From a virus, in IMG/VR virus record IMGVR_UViG_3300050119_000091, positions 2,780 to 66,779 of that record: a stretch of DNA of 64,000 nt. One strand, 5' to 3'. How positions within the stretch are numbered: position 1 is the stretch's first letter; each line of letters begins with the position of its first letter. A program made the position numbers and the translations under genes. Under the pieces are notes generated by a model that worked only from the letters and a program-made list of their open reading frames with translations, was not told where the DNA came from and did no database searches. Shown here one piece after another: positions 2,301 to 31,003 of this stretch.

Positions 2301-2501
2301 TCAGAACCTCACCCTGATTCTTGGATCGTATCGGCTTCGCGTGCGCCACTCATCTGGCAATTCAGGAAACGGTATATCGCCCCATCCTAGTTTTATCGCC
2401 AGATCCACTTCGGCCTGGTGGTCACGGTCACGCGCCAGAAAGTTTTCGTTTATCTGATCGTGCCATTCGATGATGATTTGGGCTGTGCTTATGCCGCTCA
2501 T
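2301..2501 (-). CDS. hypothetical protein
   Basis: Tight operon tiling. Confidence 0.5.
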   Translation of the reverse strand: MSGISTAQIIIEWHDQINENFLARDRDHQAEVDLAIKLGWGDIPFPELPDEWRTRSRYDPRIRVRF

Positions 2502-2504
2502 AAA

Positions 2505-2789
2505 TTACGCGAAGGTTATGCCGCCGTGTCCTGTTTTCTGCTGCGCCGCAAGGCGATACGATTCGGCCTCAATTTCCATCTGGTCCGCGATGGCCTTCGT
2601 GTATTCTTCCAGCGTGAATACGCCCTTGTCGATCAGGATCTTCACGAGTCCACCCTGATCCGACATAGCCGCGTTGATGCCGACGCGCAAATGCTTCGGC
2701 TCCGTTTCCTTGGGGTCGTGATTCATTTTGAACGCCACCCCTGACTGCATCGCGTGTGCCGCCGCCGCGTATCGTTCGCTATCGCTCAT
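2505..2789 (-). CDS. hypothetical phage protein
   Basis: Tight tiling; LVKILIDKGVFTLEEY helical motif. Confidence 0.65.
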   Translation of the reverse strand: MSDSERYAAAAHAMQSGVAFKMNHDPKETEPKHLRVGINAAMSDQGGLVKILIDKGVFTLEEYTKAIADQMEIEAESYRLAAQQKTGHGGITFA

Positions 2790-2792
2790 GAT

Positions 2793-3389
2793 TTATAGCT
2801 CCCACTTAACTGGTTGAACATCATACCCCACATACAGCGGATGCCACGGCTCGCCAGTCGCTTCCGACATTTTCAGGTAGTGAACTGTGAACGGCCCGTT
2901 CTTCAGCAATTTGCGAACCTGCGCCGATCTGCCAGCGTGCCTGCCGTCTTTTCCCCAGCCGACAATCGTCATCTGGCACAGATCGAGACAGCGCCACATC
3001 CAGTCATCGTTTTCGGGTCCGACCGACGCCGAACCAGCAGCTTTCATTTCCTTCGGGTCCGTGGCGCGGAATGCGTTAAGATTCCAGACGATGATCCCGC
3101 CGAACCCGAGCCGCCGCGCACGTTCGCAATTGCGCGTGATTGTCGGATCGTTTACCTGAGCGTCGGCAGTCGAAGGATTCAGCATCCCGAACCCGAGAAC
3201 CGGAAGCGATTTGTCCCACGTGCGCCACAAAACCCAGCGATACTTTCCGCATTCGCTTATGATCGCCCCAACTGTTTTCTCTTCCCTGAAATCGTCCACG
3301 CCTATAACCACTCCGTATTCTTTGGTAAAGCCCCGCTGTGCAATTTCTTCTTTGGCTCCGCGCCCTCGGTACTGATTTTCTTCAGCCAC
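2793..3389 (-). CDS. DUF1643 family protein
   Basis: SECGKYRWVLWRTWD, GMLNPSTAD..NDPTI, NLNAFRATDP, GEPWHPLY motifs. Confidence 0.85.
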   Translation of the reverse strand: MAEENQYRGRGAKEEIAQRGFTKEYGVVIGVDDFREEKTVGAIISECGKYRWVLWRTWDKSLPVLGFGMLNPSTADAQVNDPTITRNCERARRLGFGGIIVWNLNAFRATDPKEMKAAGSASVGPENDDWMWRCLDLCQMTIVGWGKDGRHAGRSAQVRKLLKNGPFTVHYLKMSEATGEPWHPLYVGYDVQPVKWEL

Positions 3390-5397: not shown

Positions 5398-5673
5398 TCA
5401 CTCCGTTGATTCCCCCTTGGATCGGGGCGCGTCTTTTGTGATCGTCCAGGCCACCTCGATGGATTTCAGGACCGCAGTAAGATCATCACTAATCAGCATT
5501 TCGTAAACCTTCGGCCATACGTGAATAATCGAAGTACGAATAGTTTCCCGCTGATCCTCAGGCGGCGGACGCAGGCTTATGATAGATCCGAGACGTTCAC
5601 GGCTGACGAATATCGAAAGGCTTTCCGGCTTCTCTTTCTTTGCCCGTTTTGGTTTCTCTTCAGTCGGCGTCAT
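5398..5673 (-). CDS. hypothetical protein
   Basis: ATGA overlap with the MTase stop. Confidence 0.6.
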   Translation of the reverse strand: MTPTEEKPKRAKKEKPESLSIFVSRERLGSIISLRPPPEDQRETIRTSIIHVWPKVYEMLISDDLTAVLKSIEVAWTITKDAPRSKGESTE

Positions 5674-6650
5674 ACCGCAACCTCCGTTAATTCCAGTTGC
5701 CCCTGCGACCGTGACTCAATCGCCGCGTCCAGGTTATCTCCTGCGTTTCGGAAATACGATTCTTTCAATTCGCTTCCCACGAATCGCCGCTGCTCCTGAA
5801 GCGCCACATAGCCAGAACTTCCAATCCCGGTGAACGGATCGAAAACCACGTCGCGGGGATTGCTCCACAACTCAACAGCGCGGCGAATCACCGTTAACTG
5901 AAGTGGGCAAATATGCTTGGAATCTTCCGCGTCCCGAGCGCCCGCGCGTTGCAGTGTGTCCGATGGGTTGATGTCCATCCAGACTGGTGAAGCGTAGTTC
6001 TGCCAGACGTAGTGTGAGTACTTGTTTTTCTTCTGGTCCGCGTGGCGCTCCGCCTTTGGTTCGTCTTCCGGATTTCCGATCCACTTCGTCAGACCGCGCG
6101 GATGCGCAACTGGCTCCGGATTCGTCCCGAGCTTCCGCATGATTACGAGTTGATCCGGAATCCCCTGGCGGCACATGGACGAATCTTTCACTATCTGCTT
6201 ATGCGCCAGCCCAAGCGCGTGCGTTCGCGTGGCCGCTATCAGCGGGTCTTTCCATATCGTGACGCGGGAGTGGAAAACAAAGCCGTGCTTCTGAAACGCG
6301 CGAATGATATCCCCAGGGAAGTCATACAGCCCAATAACGCCGTCATGCTCGATGCTGGTCGGAAGCTCCATGCAGTGAGTGGCCACCAGACGCCCCGGCA
6401 TCATGATACGCGCCAACTCCGAAAGCATGAAGTCTATGCCGTTGAAGAAGTCGTTTTTGGTTCGGATATTGCTCATATCCTCGGTTGCGTCCGTGTATTG
6501 ATACAACGAGACAAATGGCCAAGATGAGACGCAGAAATGTATACTATCTGACGGGATGCCGCGAACCACACGCACGCAATCGCCGTGGTATAGCGCATAC
6601 TCTTCGGTGATCTTCTGATCTATTACGGAGTCAGTGGGTACGGTAGTCAA
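5670..6650 (-). CDS. N6/N4 DNA methyltransferase (beta class)
   Basis: YHGDC, motif IV variant VSSWPF, KHICPLQL, motif I VVFDPFTGIGSSG, GSELKESYF. Confidence 0.9.
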   Translation of the reverse strand: MTTVPTDSVIDQKITEEYALYHGDCVRVVRGIPSDSIHFCVSSWPFVSLYQYTDATEDMSNIRTKNDFFNGIDFMLSELARIMMPGRLVATHCMELPTSIEHDGVIGLYDFPGDIIRAFQKHGFVFHSRVTIWKDPLIAATRTHALGLAHKQIVKDSSMCRQGIPDQLVIMRKLGTNPEPVAHPRGLTKWIGNPEDEPKAERHADQKKNKYSHYVWQNYASPVWMDINPSDTLQRAGARDAEDSKHICPLQLTVIRRAVELWSNPRDVVFDPFTGIGSSGYVALQEQRRFVGSELKESYFRNAGDNLDAAIESRSQGQLELTEVAV

Positions 6651-7416
6651 TGTGTTTTTCCCCTTTTGATTGGTTGCACCGACCGCATAGCGGCTGGATG
6701 TTGTCTATATTGTTCGATCCTCCCATTATGAGAGGAATTACGTGGTCCACCGTGAGCCTAATATCCGGCTCTTTCTTGCCGCACCTTAGACACATAAACC
6801 CCGCCGCCATCTTCAATGAATCCCACTCATGCCTTGTGTACGCTCCGCCATTCGCCAGTTTCCTAGCCCTCCGAGCGTGAACGTAAGACAATGCCTTGTC
6901 GCGATTTTCTTTAAACCACCTCCGCACCATAGCGTTATGCTTCTCTGGATTTGCGGCGTACAACTCCCGGCTCTTTCGGTTGATGGCATCTCTATTTGCT
7001 TCGGCGTAGCGTGCCCACGTTTCCTTAAATCGCCCCGGGAACTTCTCTCGGCTCTCTTTTTGGCGATTAAGAATGGCCTCTTTGTGCGATTCGTAGTGCC
7101 TCTTTTGGTGGGCTGAGAATCGGGATGGGTTTAGTTTTCGAGCCGCCTTGACCCTATCGGACAGTTCTTTCTTGTGGATTTTCTGATACCTACCCCGGAT
7201 TGCTTTGGTGGCGTCAGGATGGTCGCGCCTCCACTGCGCCGAGTAGGCCATGTGCTTTTCTTTATTGTTCTCGTAGTAAAGCCTCTTATCCTGATTGGTA
7301 CACGAACGGCACTGCGGGAATTTTCCGTCGTGACGTGACCTGTCGTTATGGAAGTTGTCTAACGGTTGAGGTGTAGAGCATTTTGAGCACGTTTTTAGGG
7401 TTGCGCTGTCAACCAT
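6631..7416 (-). CDS. HNH homing endonuclease
   Basis: N-terminal KTCSKC..CRSC, helical repeats, CLRCG..TVDHVIPL..GGSNNIDNIQPLCGRCNQSK; overlaps both neighbours. Confidence 0.9.
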   Translation of the reverse strand: MVDSATLKTCSKCSTPQPLDNFHNDRSRHDGKFPQCRSCTNQDKRLYYENNKEKHMAYSAQWRRDHPDATKAIRGRYQKIHKKELSDRVKAARKLNPSRFSAHQKRHYESHKEAILNRQKESREKFPGRFKETWARYAEANRDAINRKSRELYAANPEKHNAMVRRWFKENRDKALSYVHARRARKLANGGAYTRHEWDSLKMAAGFMCLRCGKKEPDIRLTVDHVIPLIMGGSNNIDNIQPLCGRCNQSKGEKHIDYRTH

Positions 7417-9383
7417 ACAGGCACCTCCATCGGCATTTGATGATCGTAGTTTGCGGATTTATTTGCGCGTTGCGCCAACTGCTCGACCCGCATAGCCAGC
7501 GACATTTCCCGCTGCAATTCTTCGTATGCCGCTTCTTTTTCGCGAATCGCGCTCATGATCGCGCCTTCGGTTTCGGCCATGATGATATGGGCGTTGACCG
7601 CGCGGACCTGCCCGAAGCGCCAGCACCGACGGATAGCTTGGAACATAGACTCGAAGGAATAATTCATTCCCACGAAGATCATATTGCGGCAATGCTGGAA
7701 ATTTAAGCCCCATCCGGCTACAGATGGCTTTGTCAGCAGAATCGGCCTGTCACCACGAAGCCATGCCACGATTCTTCGTTCTTTTTCGTCCGGCGACATG
7801 CTCCCGTCAATCGAGATACAGTCATCGCCGAGTGCCTTACGCATCGGCTCCTGCTCGTAGTTTGTGTTGCACCAAATGATCCAACTTTCCCTCAAGGTAG
7901 GCGATTGTTCTGCGCAGCAGGGCGACGTCGTTTTTGAATTTTCCGATCCCCATATTGCAGTTGGAGCATAGTATGCCTCTGAGCTTTCCCGTTGCGTGGC
8001 AATGGTCGATGTGCGGGAAGATTCGAGGATTTCCGATGTCTGAAAATCCGCAGATTGCACATTTTCTTCCGTGGGCGTCAAACCATTCACTGAATAACTC
8101 GACGGTAAGTCCGTATTGTCTGAGGTCTTGGTTTTTTGCTTTTGTTGGGTTGTTTTTCGCCCATTCCTTGACTTTGGATTTGTGTGACTCACGATAGTCT
8201 GCGTCAGATCGGTATCTATCCCTTCTTGCAGCGTTAATTCTGGCTCGTTGTTCAGGTGTTCGCTTGCCCCATTTGGCCTCTTTGTTTTTTGCGTAGTACT
8301 CCCGCATGTAGATCCTGTTTTCTTCTGGGGTTCTGGCGTTTTTCTCCCAATTGGCCCGTAGTCGGGCGGCGTATTCTGGGTCGCTGGTAAATTTTCGGCG
8401 TCGATTCTCTTCGTATTCTCTTTTCCAGTTTGACATTCTGACAGTTTAACACTATTGGAGATTGAGTCCAAAATTAGACTAGCGGCCTTCTGTATCCTAT
8501 CCGTGGCCGTCAGCCGCAATTCTTTATGCAGCCCGGTGGCGCTCATGTCGGGGCACCTGAACAGCATTCCTTCTGTGTTTACGGAATGATCCACAGCGAC
8601 GATATGCTCCTGAAGATTGAGCGGCGGCAGCACATAGGCGCTGTCATTGTAGGGGCCGATGTCGGACGGCTTACTGACGCACACGCAGAACTGAGACAGA
8701 AACTCGAAGAACGGTTTCTTGCCGTGGCCCTTCAGCGACCACTTGGAAGTCTGTCCGCCGTTGTGTTCAAAAAACATAGCCAGCATTTGCGTTCGGCTCA
8801 TCACATCCAGAAGCTCCGCGTGCGTCCCAAGCTCCGCGTGTTCGTTTGGAGAAGGAGTGGCACTGGAACACAACTTGAATCGAGTTTTTGAAAGTCGCTC
8901 AATGAGTCCCTGAAACAGTTTCGAGTTGAAGTCCTTGATACACGAGGATTCATCGAGAGAAATACCCGCGAACCGTGACAGGTCCAGATTGTCAAGGCTG
9001 TCGTAGTTGGTGACGTTGATGCCGTATTTCACGTCCGAGTCTTTCCGGCAGAGTGTCACCTGAATTCCAAACTTATCCGCTTCGCGCATGAACTGCTGTG
9101 CGACCGCTAGCGGGGCCGCAATCAGGCAATCTCCGCCAGTGTGGATACAGACGTGACGACACCACTCAAGTTGTATCGGCCCTTTGCCAAGTCCCGTATT
9201 CGCAAACACTGCCGCTTTGCCGCGCTTGCAGGCCCACTGCACGATATCGGCCTGGAACTCGTGCTTCGGGTCCAGCATCATCGGATTAATGTCCAACCGC
9301 TTGATATCGAACCCGCACGGATTCGCGAAGATTCTCTTTGTTGCCAGGAACTCTTCGTATGTAGATGTCAAAATATTCCCCAT
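7395..9383 (-). CDS. SNF2-like/SF2 helicase carrying a ~190-aa in-frame insertion
   Basis: FANTGLGKG (Walker A), LDESS, SATPSPN, GWGLNFQHC, QAIRRCWRFGQ; likely start ATG 9383 (MGNILTSTYEEFL). Confidence 0.85.
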   Translation of the reverse strand: MGNILTSTYEEFLATKRIFANPCGFDIKRLDINPMMLDPKHEFQADIVQWACKRGKAAVFANTGLGKGPIQLEWCRHVCIHTGGDCLIAAPLAVAQQFMREADKFGIQVTLCRKDSDVKYGINVTNYDSLDNLDLSRFAGISLDESSCIKDFNSKLFQGLIERLSKTRFKLCSSATPSPNEHAELGTHAELLDVMSRTQMLAMFFEHNGGQTSKWSLKGHGKKPFFEFLSQFCVCVSKPSDIGPYNDSAYVLPPLNLQEHIVAVDHSVNTEGMLFRCPDMSATGLHKELRLTATDRIQKAASLILDSISNSVKLSECQTGKENTKRIDAENLPATQNTPPDYGPIGRKTPEPQKKTGSTCGSTTQKTKRPNGASEHLNNEPELTLQEGIDTDLTQTIVSHTNPKSRNGRKTTQQKQKTKTSDNTDLPSSYSVNGLTPTEENVQSADFQTSEILESSRTSTIATQRESSEAYYAPTAIWGSENSKTTSPCCAEQSPTLRESWIIWCNTNYEQEPMRKALGDDCISIDGSMSPDEKERRIVAWLRGDRPILLTKPSVAGWGLNFQHCRNMIFVGMNYSFESMFQAIRRCWRFGQVRAVNAHIIMAETEGAIMSAIREKEAAYEELQREMSLAMRVEQLAQRANKSANYDHQMPMEVPVWLTAQP
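7837..8436 (-). CDS. Endonuclease VII-family homing endonuclease nested out of frame inside the helicase gene
   Basis: YGLT..F....GRKCAICG..HIDHCHATGKLRGILCSNCNMGIGKFKND..LRRTIAYL. Confidence 0.9.
   Translation of the reverse strand: MSNWKREYEENRRRKFTSDPEYAARLRANWEKNARTPEENRIYMREYYAKNKEAKWGKRTPEQRARINAARRDRYRSDADYRESHKSKVKEWAKNNPTKAKNQDLRQYGLTVELFSEWFDAHGRKCAICGFSDIGNPRIFPHIDHCHATGKLRGILCSNCNMGIGKFKNDVALLRRTIAYLEGKLDHLVQHKLRAGADA
8443..8471 (-). promoter_or_regulatory. Putative extended -10 promoter giving a leaderless mRNA for the nested endonuclease
   Basis: TTGGAC-N17-TAAACT with TGn extension, 6 nt before ATG 8436; no SD. Confidence 0.55.
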
Positions 9384-10057
9384 TGATCCGCCATTGCGCT
9401 TGCGATTCCAGTGTAAGTACGGCTCCGCATTTTTGCCCTGTCCGGTCCGGGCGGCATGTGATGTATTCGGTTCCACTGATCGAGTTGAGCGCCCCTCAGT
9501 ACGCGCGTAGTGCGCCCGGTGAGGAAATGGGTGGGGTTGTCGCGCTTGCCTTTGGCGCTCATGTGGATACTGCCATCCGCGCGTACCGCCCATTCCGGAA
9601 CTACAATATCGGACGGCTCTAACTTCGGCAGATTAGTGAGCCACAGGCATGTTGTCTTTGTCTCGCCGTGACCGTGATGCCATGGTTGAATAATCTGATC
9701 CGGCCGGCGGATTCTGGAACTTATTATGGAAACAGGGTTCTCTATTGCAATGCGAGGAATCGGAGTGGCCATCAATGCGCGTACGAAATCCAGCGCAGCG
9801 CCCTGCTCTCCGCTGGCTACTTTTTCTTTGAACCACCGCGCGCCAGACACAGACAGATGCGTACATGGCGGATGCGCGATCATCAAATCCCATCGTGAAT
9901 CTTCACGCAATAATGTGAGTACGTCGTAGTGTATGTGACGCCCCGGAACGCTCGACAATGACGGCAACAGGTCGCAACTAAAGGCATCGTGGCCGCGCGC
10001 CAGAAATGCATCCCTCACTACTCCGGATTCTTCGCAGGCAATAAGTACGCGCATCAT
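9368..10057 (-). CDS. Short phage DNA cytosine methyltransferase-like protein
   Basis: RVLIACEESGVVRDAF, AHPPCTHL (PC), IENPVS (ENV-like), RSRTYTGIASAMADQWG. Confidence 0.85.
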   Translation of the reverse strand: MMRVLIACEESGVVRDAFLARGHDAFSCDLLPSLSSVPGRHIHYDVLTLLREDSRWDLMIAHPPCTHLSVSGARWFKEKVASGEQGAALDFVRALMATPIPRIAIENPVSIISSRIRRPDQIIQPWHHGHGETKTTCLWLTNLPKLEPSDIVVPEWAVRADGSIHMSAKGKRDNPTHFLTGRTTRVLRGAQLDQWNRIHHMPPGPDRAKMRSRTYTGIASAMADQWGIF

Positions 10058-10093
10058 TTAACCAGACTCAGAGATAAAGAAGCGGCCATGCGG

Positions 10094-10366
10094 TCATTGC
10101 CCGATCCGGTGGTTAATGCGGCGTGTTTCGCGAGCCAGAACCTCAAGGCGCGTATACAAATCCAAAATCATAGACTCCAGACTCACAACGACTGGCACGG
10201 CGGCCTGCGTCAACTCCAGTTGATCGCCCAACGCGGCCATACGGTACGTGGAAACCTGTAGTTCGACGGTAGCCAACTGCTTGCTCGCCGCCGCCGCGCG
10301 CTCTACTATCGTCAGGTTCCGTGGTACTGCTTTAGCGTTCGACTTTTTACTGCTCTTGTTGGTCAT
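10094..10366 (-). CDS. hypothetical coiled-coil protein
   Basis: AAGGA RBS before ATG (MTNKSSKK). Confidence 0.55.
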   Translation of the reverse strand: MTNKSSKKSNAKAVPRNLTIVERAAAASKQLATVELQVSTYRMAALGDQLELTQAAVPVVVSLESMILDLYTRLEVLARETRRINHRIGQ

Positions 10367-11141
10367 TTTTTGTCCTTTCAATTCCAAGACTCAGAGATAG
10401 AGGGTAATCCCGTTGATGTGGTTTTTGCCCATCAGTTTCATGCTTCCAGATTTTCCGCGTAGCCAGGAAAAGCGGGAACCTATCCGGCACTTCCGTAAAC
10501 TTCCACTTCTGGATTTTGTTGTATCGATAGCCCACCTGGAGGATTGCGAGCTTGACGCCCTTCGGCAGAAGCGGGTCCGCATGCTTGTACGCCGAAACCT
10601 GCATCTCCATTGACGGCCAGATTTGCGAACTGGTTTTTACGTCAATGAGCCATACCTGATCTCCGATGCGGACCAAAAGATCGACCGTCCCGGCGTAGCG
10701 GTGTTTCTCGTGCCAAACCGTGTATTCCGCGCGAATCAGTTCGGGGTTATGCTTCCGCCACCACTCCACGAACGTCATCAAACGCCAGTATTCATCGGCG
10801 GAGAGTTCTTCTTGCTCCCCTGTATTCGGGTTCGTAAACAAATCTTCCATTGCGACCGTCCCGCCATTCACGAGACGATTGACGCCTTGGTGTACCTTGT
10901 CGCCAGCTTCGCCGGCCGCTTCTTTTATTTCGTTCGCCTGTTCGTATCCGTGTTTCGCGACCCAGCGCGTCAACTCTTCTCCCTTATGGTAAAAAGAGCA
11001 AACCCATGAAACGGATGGCACGTAGTCCCATGTTTTGTTTTCGTCGCTCAGTTGTCGCGCGTAGAATCTGGAATCCGGGGTTGTTATCCTTGTCAGCCGC
11101 TGTCCATCTACCGTCACCACTTCTCGAATTTCCCGCTTCAT
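10347..11141 (-). CDS. PD-(D/E)XK exonuclease
   Basis: PSVSWV, GDKVH, YAGTVDLL..LIDVKTS, QVSAY. Confidence 0.85.
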   Translation of the reverse strand: MKREIREVVTVDGQRLTRITTPDSRFYARQLSDENKTWDYVPSVSWVCSFYHKGEELTRWVAKHGYEQANEIKEAAGEAGDKVHQGVNRLVNGGTVAMEDLFTNPNTGEQEELSADEYWRLMTFVEWWRKHNPELIRAEYTVWHEKHRYAGTVDLLVRIGDQVWLIDVKTSSQIWPSMEMQVSAYKHADPLLPKGVKLAILQVGYRYNKIQKWKFTEVPDRFPLFLATRKIWKHETDGQKPHQRDYPLSLSLGIERTKNDQQEQ

Positions 11142-30169: not shown

Positions 30170-31003
30170 ATGCCAGCCAAGGGCGGACATCAGTCCGAAG
30201 AAGCGAAAGAAGCAATCAGGGCGTACCACAAGGGCCGAGAGTTTTCCCCGGAGCATCGGGCGAGACTCTCGGCTTCTTTACGTGGGAAGAAGCGCGCCCC
30301 GCGATCCGAAGAGACAAAAAGGAAAATCAAGGAGGCATGCTCTGGACAAAAACGCACCCCTGAGCAAATAGAGAAAAACAGGGTGTCGCATTTAGGGCAA
30401 CCCAGTGCACGCAAGGGGGTGGTGCTATCTGAAGAAACCAAGCAAAAGATACGGGATGCACGAGTGATCCAGGGGAATCCAAAATTCAATCTTCGGGGCA
30501 TTACTCAGGCTCAGGTAGATGAGGCCACCGCCAACGGGTTGCGGTGGTGTGCTGGGCAATGCAAGGCATTTATCCCGCGAGAGAGGTTCTATAAAAACGG
30601 TGAAACCAAGAGGACGGTATGTTCCTCATGTGGGCTTTCATGCAATCGCACAATGGGGCGATCTGGAGTCTATAAAAAATATGGAGTCACCGAAGAGTGG
30701 TATCAAGTTACCTTATCATCCCAAAACGGCCAATGCGCTTTGTGTCCAGCGGTGGTTCCTCCAGTTGATATGGCAGCGCCATCAGGGAAAGGGAAGCATC
30801 ACTATCTATCAATTGACCATGACCACGAAACAGGTAAGGCTAGGGCGCTCTTGTGTTCCAGGTGCAACTTGGCGCTTCATCGGGTGGAGTATGTCGATGG
30901 GTGGGCGCAGCGGGCTGTTGAGTATCTGAAAAAGCACGGTAGCCAGATTGGCAAAGAGCGCAAGCGATCTCCGGAACCTCAGTCAACGGTGGTAAGATTA
31001 TGA
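30170..31003 (+). CDS. NUMOD3 + endonuclease VII homing endonuclease
   Basis: SEETKRKI repeats; KYGVT..QNGQCALC..IDHDHETGKARALLCSRCN; TGaTATAAT 6 nt before ATG. Confidence 0.9.
   Translation: MPAKGGHQSEEAKEAIRAYHKGREFSPEHRARLSASLRGKKRAPRSEETKRKIKEACSGQKRTPEQIEKNRVSHLGQPSARKGVVLSEETKQKIRDARVIQGNPKFNLRGITQAQVDEATANGLRWCAGQCKAFIPRERFYKNGETKRTVCSSCGLSCNRTMGRSGVYKKYGVTEEWYQVTLSSQNGQCALCPAVVPPVDMAAPSGKGKHHYLSIDHDHETGKARALLCSRCNLALHRVEYVDGWAQRAVEYLKKHGSQIGKERKRSPEPQSTVVRL

What the first reader, a model, noticed from the sequence alone, without database searches (positions are those of the whole stretch)
7837..8471. Hidden homing endonuclease: out-of-frame EndoVII gene inside a helicase ORF that stays open
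Seen: a complete 199-aa endonuclease VII gene lies wholly within the helicase gene, same strand, different frame. The helicase frame has no stop across it and reads as a ~190-aa S/T/Q/K-rich disordered-looking insert between ..KAASLILDS and ESWIIWCNT, in the linker before the C-terminal RecA domain. I see no intein ends (Cys/Ser..His-Asn) and no non-coding room for a group I intron core. The element carries a TGtTAAACT promoter 6 nt before its ATG (leaderless), itself read as helicase codons, and borrows an out-of-frame TAA (7837) from helicase sequence. Inference: a splicing-free selfish element that stays neutral by dual coding. An analogous out-of-frame HNH insertion (ShiLan) is reported in actinophage methylases; I know of no EndoVII-in-helicase case.
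Basis: partly seen in the sequence, partly recalled or inferred. Interest (0 to 1): 0.85.

Follow-up and report, generated by a model that had tools for sequence, protein, structure and literature searches.

The report
Hidden endonuclease gene inside phage helicase
A selfish DNA-cutting gene sits in a shifted reading frame inside a phage helicase gene whose own frame is kept free of stop codons, so the helicase is probably translated straight through it; this splicing-free way of living inside a gene was first described in 2025, and this is a well-supported further example.

Summary
Observation confirmed, interpretation supported. A 199-aa endonuclease VII ORF (7837-8436, minus) lies in frame +2 of an SNF2-like helicase gene (7395-9383). 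It fills a 191-codon insert (7890-8462) with 0 stops in the helicase frame and 8 in the third frame.

- **Not chance or splicing:** no intron (Rfam) or intein (Pfam) signal. AlphaFold2 gives a disordered loop between the two ATPase lobes.
- **Conserved:** 16 complete diverged copies hold it, including two cultured Gordonia phages annotated only as "DNA helicase". The host frame is open in 15 of 16. It sits at two sites and in two phases, always with the host's frame open. Two relatives are free-standing beside the helicase.
- **Selection:** stop avoidance exceeds synonymous expectation (window P=0.012; L077 2.4e-5). Third-position variability follows the nuclease frame.
- **Mobility:** the window helicase is 97% identical to insert-free P0001 outside a patch that groups with insert-bearers. 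P0005 and P0016 are 98-99% identical apart from a 179-aa block. Malisha and Squiddly are 99-100% identical only around the element.
- **Expression (inferred):** TGnTAAACT-N6-start recurs in 6 copies.

New member of the 2025 "ShiLan" kind. This scan noted the same layout on other DNA four times. No RNA or protein data exist.

The parts
7395..9383 (-). SNF2-like (Swi2/Snf2 fold) phage DNA helicase gene, 662 codons from the ATG at 9383. The open frame runs up to 9593.
   Evidence: ORF. (Helicase_C). (phrog_62 and phrog_16, DNA helicase). (Foldseek top hits CSB, Mot1, ISWI, Chd1, RapA, Rad54; E down to 7e-14). (both ATPase lobes mostly at pLDDT above 90).
7890..8462 (-). Insert in the helicase, read in the helicase frame: 191 codons, no stop, T/S/E/K/P/N/Q-rich. 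It lies between the long helix that ends ATPase lobe 1 and the first strand of lobe 2. GC is 47.6% against 53.1% for the rest of the gene.
   Evidence: absent from P0001-P0004 and most homologues. (length, composition, GC). (aa 331-494 at pLDDT below 50, no secondary structure).
7837..8436 (-). Endonuclease VII-family gene (199 aa), a putative homing endonuclease, in helicase frame +2. Its stop lies in resumed helicase sequence.
   Evidence: PF02945, E 2.4e-20. (phrog_2633 and phrog_2914, endonuclease VII). (aligns to T4 endonuclease VII 1e7d and to Hpy99I). (the C-C-D-H-H-R-C-C-N columns are kept in 13 of 13 copies).
8443..8451 (-). TGtTAAACT, a candidate extended -10 promoter element 6 nt before the nuclease ATG. 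Its TAA is an in-frame stop in the nuclease frame. No Shine-Dalgarno sequence follows.
   Evidence: TAAACT ends 6 nt before the start codon in 7 of the 17 copies scanned (WIN, L045, L001, L057, L079, L082 and the free-standing L053), 6 of them with TGn. L021 has TGgTAATCT at the same place; the neighbouring HNH gene has GGAGGT and the nuclease has nothing similar. Function is inferred, not shown.
7626..8495 (-). Imported patch (helicase aa ~297-586): the insert plus about 11 codons upstream and about 88 downstream. It does not match the P0001-type backbone and groups with insert-bearing helicases, so it is the putative co-conversion tract.
   Evidence: identity to P0001: 97%, 97%, 27%, [insert], 41%, 57%, 93% by segment. 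(trees and AU tests). Boundaries are at protein level only, because no DNA of P0001 was available.
6631..7416 (-). Neighbouring free-standing HNH endonuclease gene (261 aa) between helicase and methylase. It is not part of the insert but is probably a second homing-type gene in the same module.
   Evidence: HNH_5 and HNH. (phrog_1035). (strong GGAGGT ribosome-binding site).
5670..6650 (-). N6/N4 DNA methylase gene that follows the helicase module. The same helicase-methylase pairing is seen in the related loci.
   Evidence: PF01555. (a methylase directly downstream of, or fused to, the helicase in relatives).

Best explanation
The insert is a mobile, splicing-free homing-endonuclease element. 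It is a free-standing-type endonuclease VII gene that has invaded the inter-lobe linker of a phage SNF2-like helicase gene and is neither an intron nor an intein.

Shown:
- The nuclease ORF is intact and under purifying selection.
- The helicase frame across it is kept free of stop codons, both by codon choice and by avoidance of residue pairs that force a stop.
- The helicase-frame peptide itself is not conserved and is predicted to be disordered.
- The element is present or absent among near-identical helicase alleles, and it travels with flanking helicase sequence.

Inferred:
- The helicase is translated straight through the insert and tolerates it as a floppy loop of about 190 aa between its two ATPase lobes.
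- The nuclease is made from an internal start. I favour a leaderless mRNA begun by the element's own TGnTAAACT extended -10, 6 nt upstream of the ATG (about 40% confidence for this step).
- In a mixed infection the nuclease cuts insert-free helicase alleles near the site. Repair from the insert-bearing genome then copies the element together with flanking helicase DNA (co-conversion).
For: **Anatomy.**

**No splicing signals.** Rfam found 0 matches at E<=1 in 6000-11000. Pfam finds only Helicase_C in the host frame. The nuclease ORF fills the insert from about codon 10 to beyond its end, leaving no room for splicing domains. AF2 finds no fold in aa 331-494.

**Conservation.**
- I found 16 complete, distinct embedded copies and one cut by a contig end.
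- The host frame is fully open in 15 of the 16.
- The non-host alternative frame has 2-17 stops in the 13 copies, 4 in L077, 1 in L079 and 10 in L080.
- Catalytic and zinc-binding columns are intact in 13 of 13 aligned copies, at 38-73% pairwise identity.

**Natural control.** In L077 the nuclease is at +1 rather than +2. There the other frame, which is the host's, is open with P=2.4e-5. The frame that is open in every other copy has 4 stops.

**Stop avoidance.**
- P(open) ranges from 0.002 to 0.44 per copy. The sum of log10 over 13 non-independent copies is -21.7.
- None of the 13 embedded copies has an M[KNTIM] pair.
- 5 of 6 free-standing relatives have 4-11 stops in that frame and P=0.

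**Which frame is selected.** Pairwise differences at codon positions 1/2/3 are 0.43/0.37/0.64 in the helicase flank upstream. In the insert they are 0.42/0.37/0.60 in the nuclease frame, so the helicase's second codon position is the most variable there.

**Mobility.**
- The window is 97% identical to insert-free P0001 over aa 1-295 and 93% over aa 591-662, but 41-57% over aa 499-590.
- In the N-domain tree the window is nested in insert-free clades (99*, 100*). AU rejects a single insert-bearing clade (p=5.6e-86).
- In the flank tree the window joins all insert-bearers plus P0016 (99*). AU rejects the window grouping with P0001-P0004 (p=2.4e-4).
- P0005 and P0016 match at 297/300 and 169/172 residues and differ by a 179-aa block.
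- Malisha and Squiddly DNA is 99-100% identical over about 900 nt centred on the element, against 70-96% elsewhere in the helicase and 71-86% in the methylase downstream.
- There are two insertion sites about 45 aa apart, and free-standing copies sit between helicase and methylase in L053 and L055.

**Expression signal.**
Against: - There are no RNA, protein or activity data. No RNA run holds the stretch, so read-through translation, nuclease expression and cleavage are all inferred.
- One of the 16 complete copies, L082, has a TGA in the helicase frame at the conserved Trp codon just after the insert, and a shortened 142-aa nuclease. It may be decaying.
- In GC-rich copies the open frame is weak evidence on its own: P=0.44 for L001 and 0.32 for L057.
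- Free-standing L053 also has 0 stops in that frame, with P=0.09.
- The 13 copies are phylogenetically related, so the summed log-probability overstates significance.
- The clades used in the AU tests were named after I had seen the alignment.
- No DNA of P0001 could be fetched, so the window's conversion tract is defined at protein level only. Its sampled relatives are only 64-71% identical in the flank, so the donor is unsampled.
- TAAACT at the -12 position occurs in only 7 of the 17 copies scanned. Several others have Shine-Dalgarno-like sequences instead.
- The host is unknown.
Confidence: 0.8

Rival explanations
1. The nuclease is not selfish but a working partner of the helicase, for example a structure-specific or junction-resolving nuclease as T4 endonuclease VII is. 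It is overprinted in the helicase gene for compactness or co-expression.
For: Nucleases of the HNH or endonuclease VII type recur next to this helicase-methylase module: L053 and L055, the window's HNH gene, and 'DNA helicase | HNH endonuclease' annotations in mycobacteriophages. The nuclease is kept intact in 13 of 13 diverged copies. From a search listing only (PMC5481773): the eukaryotic SNF2 protein ZRANB3 carries an HNH domain.
Against: Most helicases of the family lack it: 113 of the 120 best hits and 37 of 38 IMG/VR loci. Near-identical alleles exist with and without it. It occurs at two sites and in two phases, and it moves with co-converted flanks. This is the pattern of a mobile element, not of a fixed module. 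Its closest named relatives include a gene annotated as the homing endonuclease F-CphI of phage S-PM2 (annotation only).
Confidence: 0.1
2. The insert is removed before the helicase works, as an unrecognised intron at RNA level or an atypical intein at protein level, and the open frame is needed only for the latter.
For: Rfam models can miss degenerate or novel introns. [quoted passage not shown] One relative, L048, carries a probable intein elsewhere in the same helicase.
Against: Rfam found 0 hits at E<=1. An intron would not need 15 of 16 copies to keep the host frame open, nor L077 to keep a different frame open. There is no Hint or intein Pfam match. No Cys/Ser...His-Asn + Cys/Ser/Thr ends are conserved across copies. 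The nuclease ORF covers nearly the whole insert, so no splicing domain fits. The helicase-frame peptide evolves fastest at second codon positions and is predicted unstructured.
Confidence: 0.04
3. The open helicase frame is a by-product: a recent insertion or a composition effect, with the helicase dead or dispensable.
For: Single GC-rich copies have P(open) up to 0.44. L082 has a stop in the helicase.
Against: 15 of 16 diverged copies are open, while the other alternative frame always has stops. L077 has P=2.4e-5. The helicase flanks show normal third-position variability, that is, purifying selection. The loss allele P0016 kept the frame.
Confidence: 0.02

Closest known systems
ShiLan domain and the Pacc40 gp60 insertion: 'hidden' out-of-frame HNH endonucleases in mycobacteriophage DNA methylase and helicase-methylase genes (Arsenault, Gosselin and Gogarten 2025, Genes 16:178, PMC11855218; abstract, passages, and sections 3.6 and 4 read)
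   Same: An insertion of about 190 aa in a conserved phage DNA-metabolism gene. The host frame has no stops. A complete nuclease ORF sits in 'the third frame' (+2), with its stop at or just past the insert end. There are no intron or intein signatures. The in-frame peptide is predicted to be disordered or looped. The distribution among close relatives is disjunct. Related nucleases are free-standing beside the host gene in other phages. The gene neighbourhood is the same (helicase, HNH, methylase). Leaderless initiation is proposed for expression.
   Different: The nuclease here is of the Endonuclease_7 family (PF02945), not the HNH or AP2-like type. The host is the SNF2-like helicase at its inter-lobe linker, not the methylase. 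Copies come from uncultured phages of peat, lake and other metagenomes, a Saccharibacteria MAG contig and Gordonia phages, not Mycobacterium phages. This report adds tests I did not find in the parts of that paper I read: stop-avoidance statistics, a codon-position switch, two sites and two phases, recombinant flanks, and a conserved TGnTAAACT-N6-ATG.
Actinophage inteins with an out-of-frame ('frame 3') endonuclease VII-like homing endonuclease (bioRxiv 10.1101/2025.01.02.630785; passages read)
   Same: The same nuclease family, the same +2 phase, and the host or intein frame kept open over the nuclease ORF. Free-standing relatives exist.
   Different: Those sit inside bona fide inteins with splicing domains, in DNA polymerase, minor capsid, terminase and thymidylate synthase genes, and are removed by protein splicing. 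Here there are no splicing domains and no room for them. That paper's supplementary tables were not available to me and might list helicase hosts.
Free-standing phage homing endonuclease genes of the endonuclease VII type, such as the gene annotated F-CphI in Synechococcus phage S-PM2
   Same: The catalytic domain is homologous: 40% identity over aa 83-181, and the record is annotated 'F-CphI: homing endonuclease'. Relatives L053, L055 and L003-L005 are free-standing genes between phage genes.
   Different: Free-standing genes sit in intergenic DNA and do not overlap a host ORF. That F-CphI is biochemically characterised is recalled, not checked here.
Inteins and group I introns carrying homing endonucleases
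   Same: They invade conserved sites of essential phage genes, spread by double-strand-break repair with co-conversion of flanks, and follow a gain, decay and loss cycle (established knowledge). The scar allele P0016 fits a loss step.
   Different: Here neutrality to the host is obtained without any splicing, by keeping the host frame open through the element.

Membership tests
Endonuclease VII family (Pfam PF02945, His-Me finger) | Significant match to the family profile | tested here: met
   E 2.4e-20, 72.6 bits against a cut-off of 23.6, aa 105-182 covering profile positions 5-81 of 82; phrog_2633, E 1.7e-27.
Endonuclease VII family (Pfam PF02945, His-Me finger) | Zinc-binding Cys pairs and the catalytic D-H-x-H ... 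N motif | tested here: met
   aligns to T4 endonuclease VII (1e7d, E 8.7e-5) across CxxC ... DHxH ... CxxCN. C126, C129, D144, H145, H147, C157, C160 and N161 are kept in 13 of 13 copies. The catalytic roles of these residues are recalled from the T4 literature.
Endonuclease VII family (Pfam PF02945, His-Me finger) | Nuclease activity | not testable with these tools
   No biochemical data.
ShiLan-type hidden (out-of-frame, non-spliced) homing endonuclease insertion | An insertion in a conserved host gene that is absent from close homologues | tested here: met
   P0001 is 97% identical in the N domain and lacks it. 113 of the 120 best hits lack it.
ShiLan-type hidden (out-of-frame, non-spliced) homing endonuclease insertion | The host frame is free of stops through the insertion | tested here: met
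   0 stops in 191 codons, P 0.012 to 0.0005. 15 of 16 complete copies are open.
ShiLan-type hidden (out-of-frame, non-spliced) homing endonuclease insertion | A complete nuclease ORF in an alternative same-strand frame that nearly fills the insertion | tested here: met
   The frame is +2, as in ShiLan, except +1 in L077.
ShiLan-type hidden (out-of-frame, non-spliced) homing endonuclease insertion | No intron or intein signatures | tested here: met
   (Rfam, 0 hits at E<=1). (no Hint or intein family). (unstructured). Absence of splicing itself is not testable here.
ShiLan-type hidden (out-of-frame, non-spliced) homing endonuclease insertion | A disjunct distribution or other evidence of horizontal spread | tested here: met
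ShiLan-type hidden (out-of-frame, non-spliced) homing endonuclease insertion | HNH-type nuclease in a DNA methylase (the described members) | tested here: not met
   Here the nuclease is Endonuclease_7 and the host is an SNF2-like helicase. It is the same kind of element but not the same element family.
Intein | Hint splicing domain, N-terminal Cys/Ser, and C-terminal His-Asn followed by Cys/Ser/Thr | tested here: not met
   (no intein family). (insert ends not conserved, no HN+C/S/T). (no fold). By contrast L048's other insert ends ...THN|T and has a weak LAGLIDADG match below the curated cut-off.
Group I or group II intron | A conserved ribozyme core | tested here: not met
   no Rfam family at E<=1 in 6000-11000 on either strand. 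Novel ribozymes cannot be excluded.
SNF2/Swi2 family ATPase (the host gene) | Two RecA-like lobes with the Snf2-type fold, plus Walker A and DExx motifs | tested here: met
   500 or more PDB matches, with CSB, Mot1, ISWI, Chd1, RapA and Rad54 at the top. GLGK and DESS are invariant. PF00176 is precomputed on several homologues.

The most novel reading that the evidence does not exclude
The element carries its own portable expression signal. A conserved extended -10 (TGnTAAACT) is placed so that transcription would start at, or within a base or two of, the nuclease AUG. That would give a leaderless mRNA translated independently of helicase translation. It would answer the question the ShiLan paper left open, namely how hidden endonucleases are made. 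It would also explain how one cassette works at two sites, in two phases, and as a free-standing gene. Within the 9-mer, the only position that varies among six copies is the 'n' of the consensus. That position changes the helicase-frame residue (V, D or A), so the constraint looks like one on nucleotides, not on protein.
Probability: 0.35. Interest if true: 0.6.

Novelty: new member of a known kind. Interest (0 to 1): 0.45.

Why it matters
- **A third way into genes.** Homing endonuclease genes were thought to enter coding sequence only as passengers of introns or inteins. A third, splicing-free route was reported in 2025 from a few mycobacteriophage methylases.
- **Generality.** This case shows the route with another nuclease family, another host gene and many environments.
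- **Evidence of selection.** It adds quantitative evidence that selection keeps the host frame open. This includes a natural control in which a different frame is the open one.
- **Evidence of homing.** It adds recombination footprints of the kind expected from homing.
- **Annotation.** Gene callers miss these nested genes. Malisha and Squiddly list only 'DNA helicase', and long 'linkers' in phage helicases may hide nucleases.
- **Testability.** The two cultured Gordonia phages make the mechanism directly testable.
- **Insertion tolerance.** The inter-lobe linker of SNF2-type motors appears as an insertion-tolerant site.

Tried and rejected
- **DNA of named protein hits.** The window's conversion tract is therefore defined at protein level only. 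The nuclease ORFs inside P0005, P0012, P0015, P0017, P0027 and P0042 were not seen; P0014 was seen as L021.
- **Close empty allele.** A scan of viral contigs with P0001 found nothing closer than 68%.
- **RNA evidence.** No RNA holder was listed.
- **Laid contigs.** Contigs of X2, X5, X6 and X7 showed no joint skipping the insert. Apart from X2's full-length contig there were only short pieces, six identical to the window and the rest diverged. This says nothing about empty alleles.
- **First shuffle test.** The Monte-Carlo version timed out. I replaced it with an exact dynamic-programming calculation.
- **Sigma-70 scan.** The generic scan reported nothing at the nuclease start. It requires a -35 hexamer, so it cannot judge an extended -10.
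- **-1 frameshift fusion of helicase lobe 1 to the nuclease.** Rejected. The nuclease frame has a stop (the TAA of TAAACT) 4 codons before the ATG in the window and in the other copies with that motif.
- **-35/-10 reading of the AAYTGGCARC repeats.** Rejected. The spacing between TTGGCA and TAAACT is 10-11 nt.
- **Cultured relatives of Malisha.** A megablast search for relatives with an empty site found only Malisha and Squiddly.
- **Supplements.** They may list further hosts of out-of-frame endonucleases.
Full report
**1. What is there**

On the minus strand of the window lies a 732-codon open frame (7395-9593). A complete 199-aa ORF (7837-8436) sits inside it on the same strand.
- The inner ORF is a clear endonuclease VII family member: Pfam PF02945, E 2.4e-20; phrog_2633, E 1.7e-27.
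- It aligns to T4 endonuclease VII and to Hpy99I across the CxxC...DHxH...CxxCN core.
- The outer frame is a helicase. It matches Helicase_C and phrog_62 and phrog_16.
- An AlphaFold2 model built on a 118-sequence alignment has the Swi2/Snf2 fold. The top PDB matches are CSB, Mot1, ISWI, Chd1, RapA and Rad54.
- Homologues begin at the ATG at 9383, so I take the helicase as 7395-9383, 662 aa.
- The nuclease frame is the helicase frame +2.
- Between KAASLILDS and ESWIIWCNT the helicase frame reads 191 codons (7890-8462) with no stop. They are rich in T, S, E, K, P, N and Q and poor in hydrophobic residues. GC is 47.6% there against 53.1% in the rest of the gene.
- The third same-strand frame has 8 stops over the nuclease ORF.

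**2. Not an intron, not an intein, not chance**

- Rfam found nothing at E<=1 on either strand of 6000-11000.
- Pfam sees no Hint or intein domain in the host frame.
- The ends of the insert are not conserved and show no His-Asn + Cys/Ser/Thr.
- The nuclease ORF occupies the insert from about its tenth codon to beyond its end, so no room is left for splicing domains.
- In the model, residues 331-494 have pLDDT below 50 and no secondary structure. They lie between a long helix (282-319) that ends lobe 1 and the first strand of lobe 2 (501-505). Both lobes are mostly above 90.
- Holding the nuclease protein fixed and drawing synonymous codons, an exact calculation gives the probability that the helicase frame is stop-free. 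It is 0.012 with helicase-flank usage, 0.0018 with the ORF's own usage and 0.0005 with uniform choice.

**3. The same arrangement in diverged copies**

How the copies were found:
- A tblastn search of GenBank phages found the nuclease's two best relatives (about 39% identity over 90% of its length) inside the genes annotated only 'DNA helicase' of Gordonia phages Malisha and Squiddly.
- Each has a 176-aa endonuclease VII ORF in frame +2 of an open helicase frame.
- Scans with nuclease and helicase alignments added copies from IMG/VR, JGI and other metagenomes, and a Saccharibacteria MAG contig.

After merging loci that gave the same statistics, I count 16 complete distinct embedded copies: WIN, L001/2, L021, L045, L046/47, L048, L049/50, L051/52, L054, L056, L057, L058-60/80/81, L062, L077, L079 and L082. 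One more, L061, is cut by a contig end.

What the copies show:
- The host frame is fully open over the nuclease ORF in 15 of the 16.
- The exception, L082, has a single TGA at the conserved Trp codon of EPWLIWC just after the insert, and a shortened 142-aa nuclease.
- The remaining alternative frame always has stops: 2-17 in the 13 copies, 4 in L077, 1 in L079 and 10 in L080.
- The nuclease's zinc-binding and catalytic columns are intact in 13 of 13 aligned copies, at 38-73% pairwise identity.
- Six further helicase proteins carry the insert (P0005, P0012, P0015, P0017, P0027, P0042).

**4. Selection acts on openness, not on the host-frame peptide**

- Per copy, P(host frame open | nuclease protein, flank codon usage) runs from 0.002 to 0.44. 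The sum of log10 over 13 copies is -21.7. The copies are related, so this overstates the case.
- Five of six free-standing relatives (L055, L003, L004, L005, L063) have 4-11 stops in that frame. Their proteins make a stop unavoidable, so P=0.
- None of the 13 embedded proteins contains a Met followed by K, N, T, I or M, the pairs that force TGA.
- The cleanest control is L077. There the nuclease is at +1 rather than +2, at the same site. It is the other frame, again the host's, that has 0 stops (P=2.4e-5 with flank usage). The frame that is open in every other copy has 4 stops.
- Pairwise differences at codon positions 1/2/3 are 0.43/0.37/0.64 and 0.45/0.42/0.63 in the helicase flanks. In the insert they are 0.42/0.37/0.60 in the nuclease frame. 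The helicase's second position is therefore the most variable there, and its peptide is not conserved.

**5. Mobility**

(a) Rarity. Only 7 of the 120 best helicase homologues carry the insert, and 1 of 38 IMG/VR loci does.

(b) The window's helicase is a recombinant.
- Against insert-free P0001 it is 97% identical over aa 1-295 and 93% over aa 591-662.
- It is only 27% identical over aa 296-309, 41% over aa 499-545 and 57% over aa 546-590.
- In that flank its nearest relatives are the insert-bearers, at 64-71%, and P0016.
- In an N-domain tree the window is nested in insert-free clades (SH-aLRT 99 and 100). The AU test rejects one clade of insert-bearers (p=5.6e-86).
- In the tree of aa 499-586 the window joins all seven insert-bearers plus P0016 (99.7). 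The AU test rejects the window grouping with P0001-P0004 (p=2.4e-4).
- I named these groups after seeing the alignment.

(c) P0005 (650 aa) and P0016 (471 aa) match at 297/300 and 169/172 residues and differ by a 179-aa block. P0016 keeps short pieces of both insert ends (GWN...EPSNISQLPQ). It therefore looks like an in-frame loss allele rather than a virgin site.

(d) At DNA level, Malisha and Squiddly are 99-100% identical over about 900 nt centred on the element. They are 70-96% identical in the rest of the helicase and 71-86% in the methylase downstream.

(e) The element occurs at two sites.
- Site A lies before the (E)PW[IL][IV]WC strand. It holds WIN, L021, L048, L049, L051, L057, L058, L062 and L001, plus L077 and L082 by their translations.
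- Site B lies about 45 residues further on, before the KVLI.KP strand. It holds L045, L047, L054 and L056.
- L079's site was not checked.

(f) In L053 and L055 the same nuclease subfamily, with the M.WKPEY...YMREYY N-terminus, is a free-standing gene between an insert-free helicase and the methylase.

All of this is what homing by double-strand-break repair with co-conversion predicts. Cleavage itself is not shown.

**6. Expression (inferred)**

- The nuclease start has no Shine-Dalgarno sequence, whereas the next gene (HNH) has GGAGGT.
- TAAACT ends exactly 6 nt before the start codon in 7 of the 17 copies scanned. These are WIN, L045, L001, L057, L079, L082 and L053, where it lies in an intergenic spacer. 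Six of the seven are preceded by TGn. L021 has TGgTAATCT at the same place.
- Within TGnTAAACT the only position that varies is the n. That position changes the helicase-frame residue, which argues for a nucleotide-level signal.
I give it about 40%.
- Other copies have Shine-Dalgarno-like sequences instead (L054, L048, L056, L061, L077).
- No RNA run holds the stretch.

**7. What is known**

- The kind was described in 2025: the ShiLan domain, an out-of-frame HNH in mycobacteriophage methylases, and a second hidden nuclease in the helicase-methylase fusion Pacc40 gp60 (PMC11855218; abstract, passages, and sections 3.6 and 4 read). That paper does not mention endonuclease VII (0 occurrences).
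- A 2025 preprint reports endonuclease VII-like genes in 'frame 3' inside true inteins of other genes.
- Five full-text searches found no report of an endonuclease VII gene overprinted in an SNF2-type helicase without an intein.
- This scan has noted the same layout on other DNA four times.
- I therefore file it as a new member of a known kind. The value added here lies in the selection statistics, the two sites and two phases, the homing footprints, the candidate promoter, and two cultured phages in which it can be tested.

**8. Limits**

- There are no transcript, protein or activity data.
- The window's host is unknown. The record is an IMG/VR virus contig of 66.8 kb with inverted terminal repeats and an estimated completeness of 46%.
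- The window's conversion tract is mapped at protein level only.
- The donor lineage is unsampled.

Noticed in passing
L077:1579-3546 (helicase), 2498-3049 (nuclease): The only copy in which the nuclease is at +1 instead of +2 relative to the helicase, at the same site. The host frame is still stop-free (P=2.4e-5), while the frame that is open elsewhere has 4 stops. TAAACT lies 25 nt before the ATG (hexamer starting 31 nt upstream), followed by a leader with GGAGA.
   Followed up: yes
L082:2905-2910: The helicase frame has TGA where all relatives have the Trp codon of EPWLIWC, just after the insert. The nuclease here is only 142 aa. This could be a decaying copy, a nonsense mutation or a sequencing error. 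Other genes of the locus read normally under code 11.
   Followed up: partly
L048:1052-4045: This helicase carries the hidden endonuclease VII and also a second, in-frame insert of about 335 aa right after the Walker A GLGK. That insert has a weak LAGLIDADG_3 match (E 2.6e-4, 21.6 bits, below the 22.5-bit cut-off) and ends ...THN|T, so it is probably an intein. Two different selfish elements sit in one gene.
   Followed up: partly
L057, L079, L082, L053, L001: 45 nt upstream of the nuclease start: There are two direct copies of AAYTGGCARC, 21-22 nt apart, at the 5' junction. The second overlaps TAAACT. In L082 the two copies are in different phases of the helicase frame, and in L053 both are intergenic, so the repeat is at nucleotide level. 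Its meaning is unknown (nuclease target remnant, protein-binding site, or junction duplication). The first copy is degenerate in the window.
   Followed up: partly
P0016 versus P0005: P0016 is a 471-aa helicase 98-99% identical to insert-bearing P0005 on both sides of the site. It retains a few residues of both insert ends, so it is an apparent in-frame deletion ('scar') allele that removed the nuclease gene.
   Followed up: yes
window 30170-31003 (+): A second, free-standing endonuclease VII-domain ORF (277 aa...SIDHDHETGKARALLCSRCNLAL...) in the late region. It is 31% identical to the hidden one over aa 96-183.
   Followed up: partly
window 6631-7416 (-): A 261-aa HNH endonuclease gene with a strong ribosome-binding site lies between helicase and methylase, in the position held by the free-standing endonuclease VII in L053 and L055. 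The phage therefore carries at least three homing-type nuclease genes.
   Followed up: partly
L046/L047 and L051/L052: In these loci the helicase with the hidden nuclease is fused in frame to the N6/N4 methylase (about 925-940 aa). This is the helicase-methylase architecture of Pacc40 gp60 in the ShiLan paper.
   Followed up: partly
L001:3954-4484 and L002:3951-4481 (GenBank OP434458 and MN096370): The 176-aa endonuclease VII ORFs of Gordonia phages Malisha and Squiddly are not annotated. Only 'DNA helicase' is listed there.
   Followed up: yes
window 9368-9383: The upstream methyltransferase-like gene (9368-10057, phrog_757) overlaps the proposed helicase start by 16 nt. The helicase start has only a weak ribosome-binding site (GGCGGA), so the true start is not certain.
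   Followed up: no
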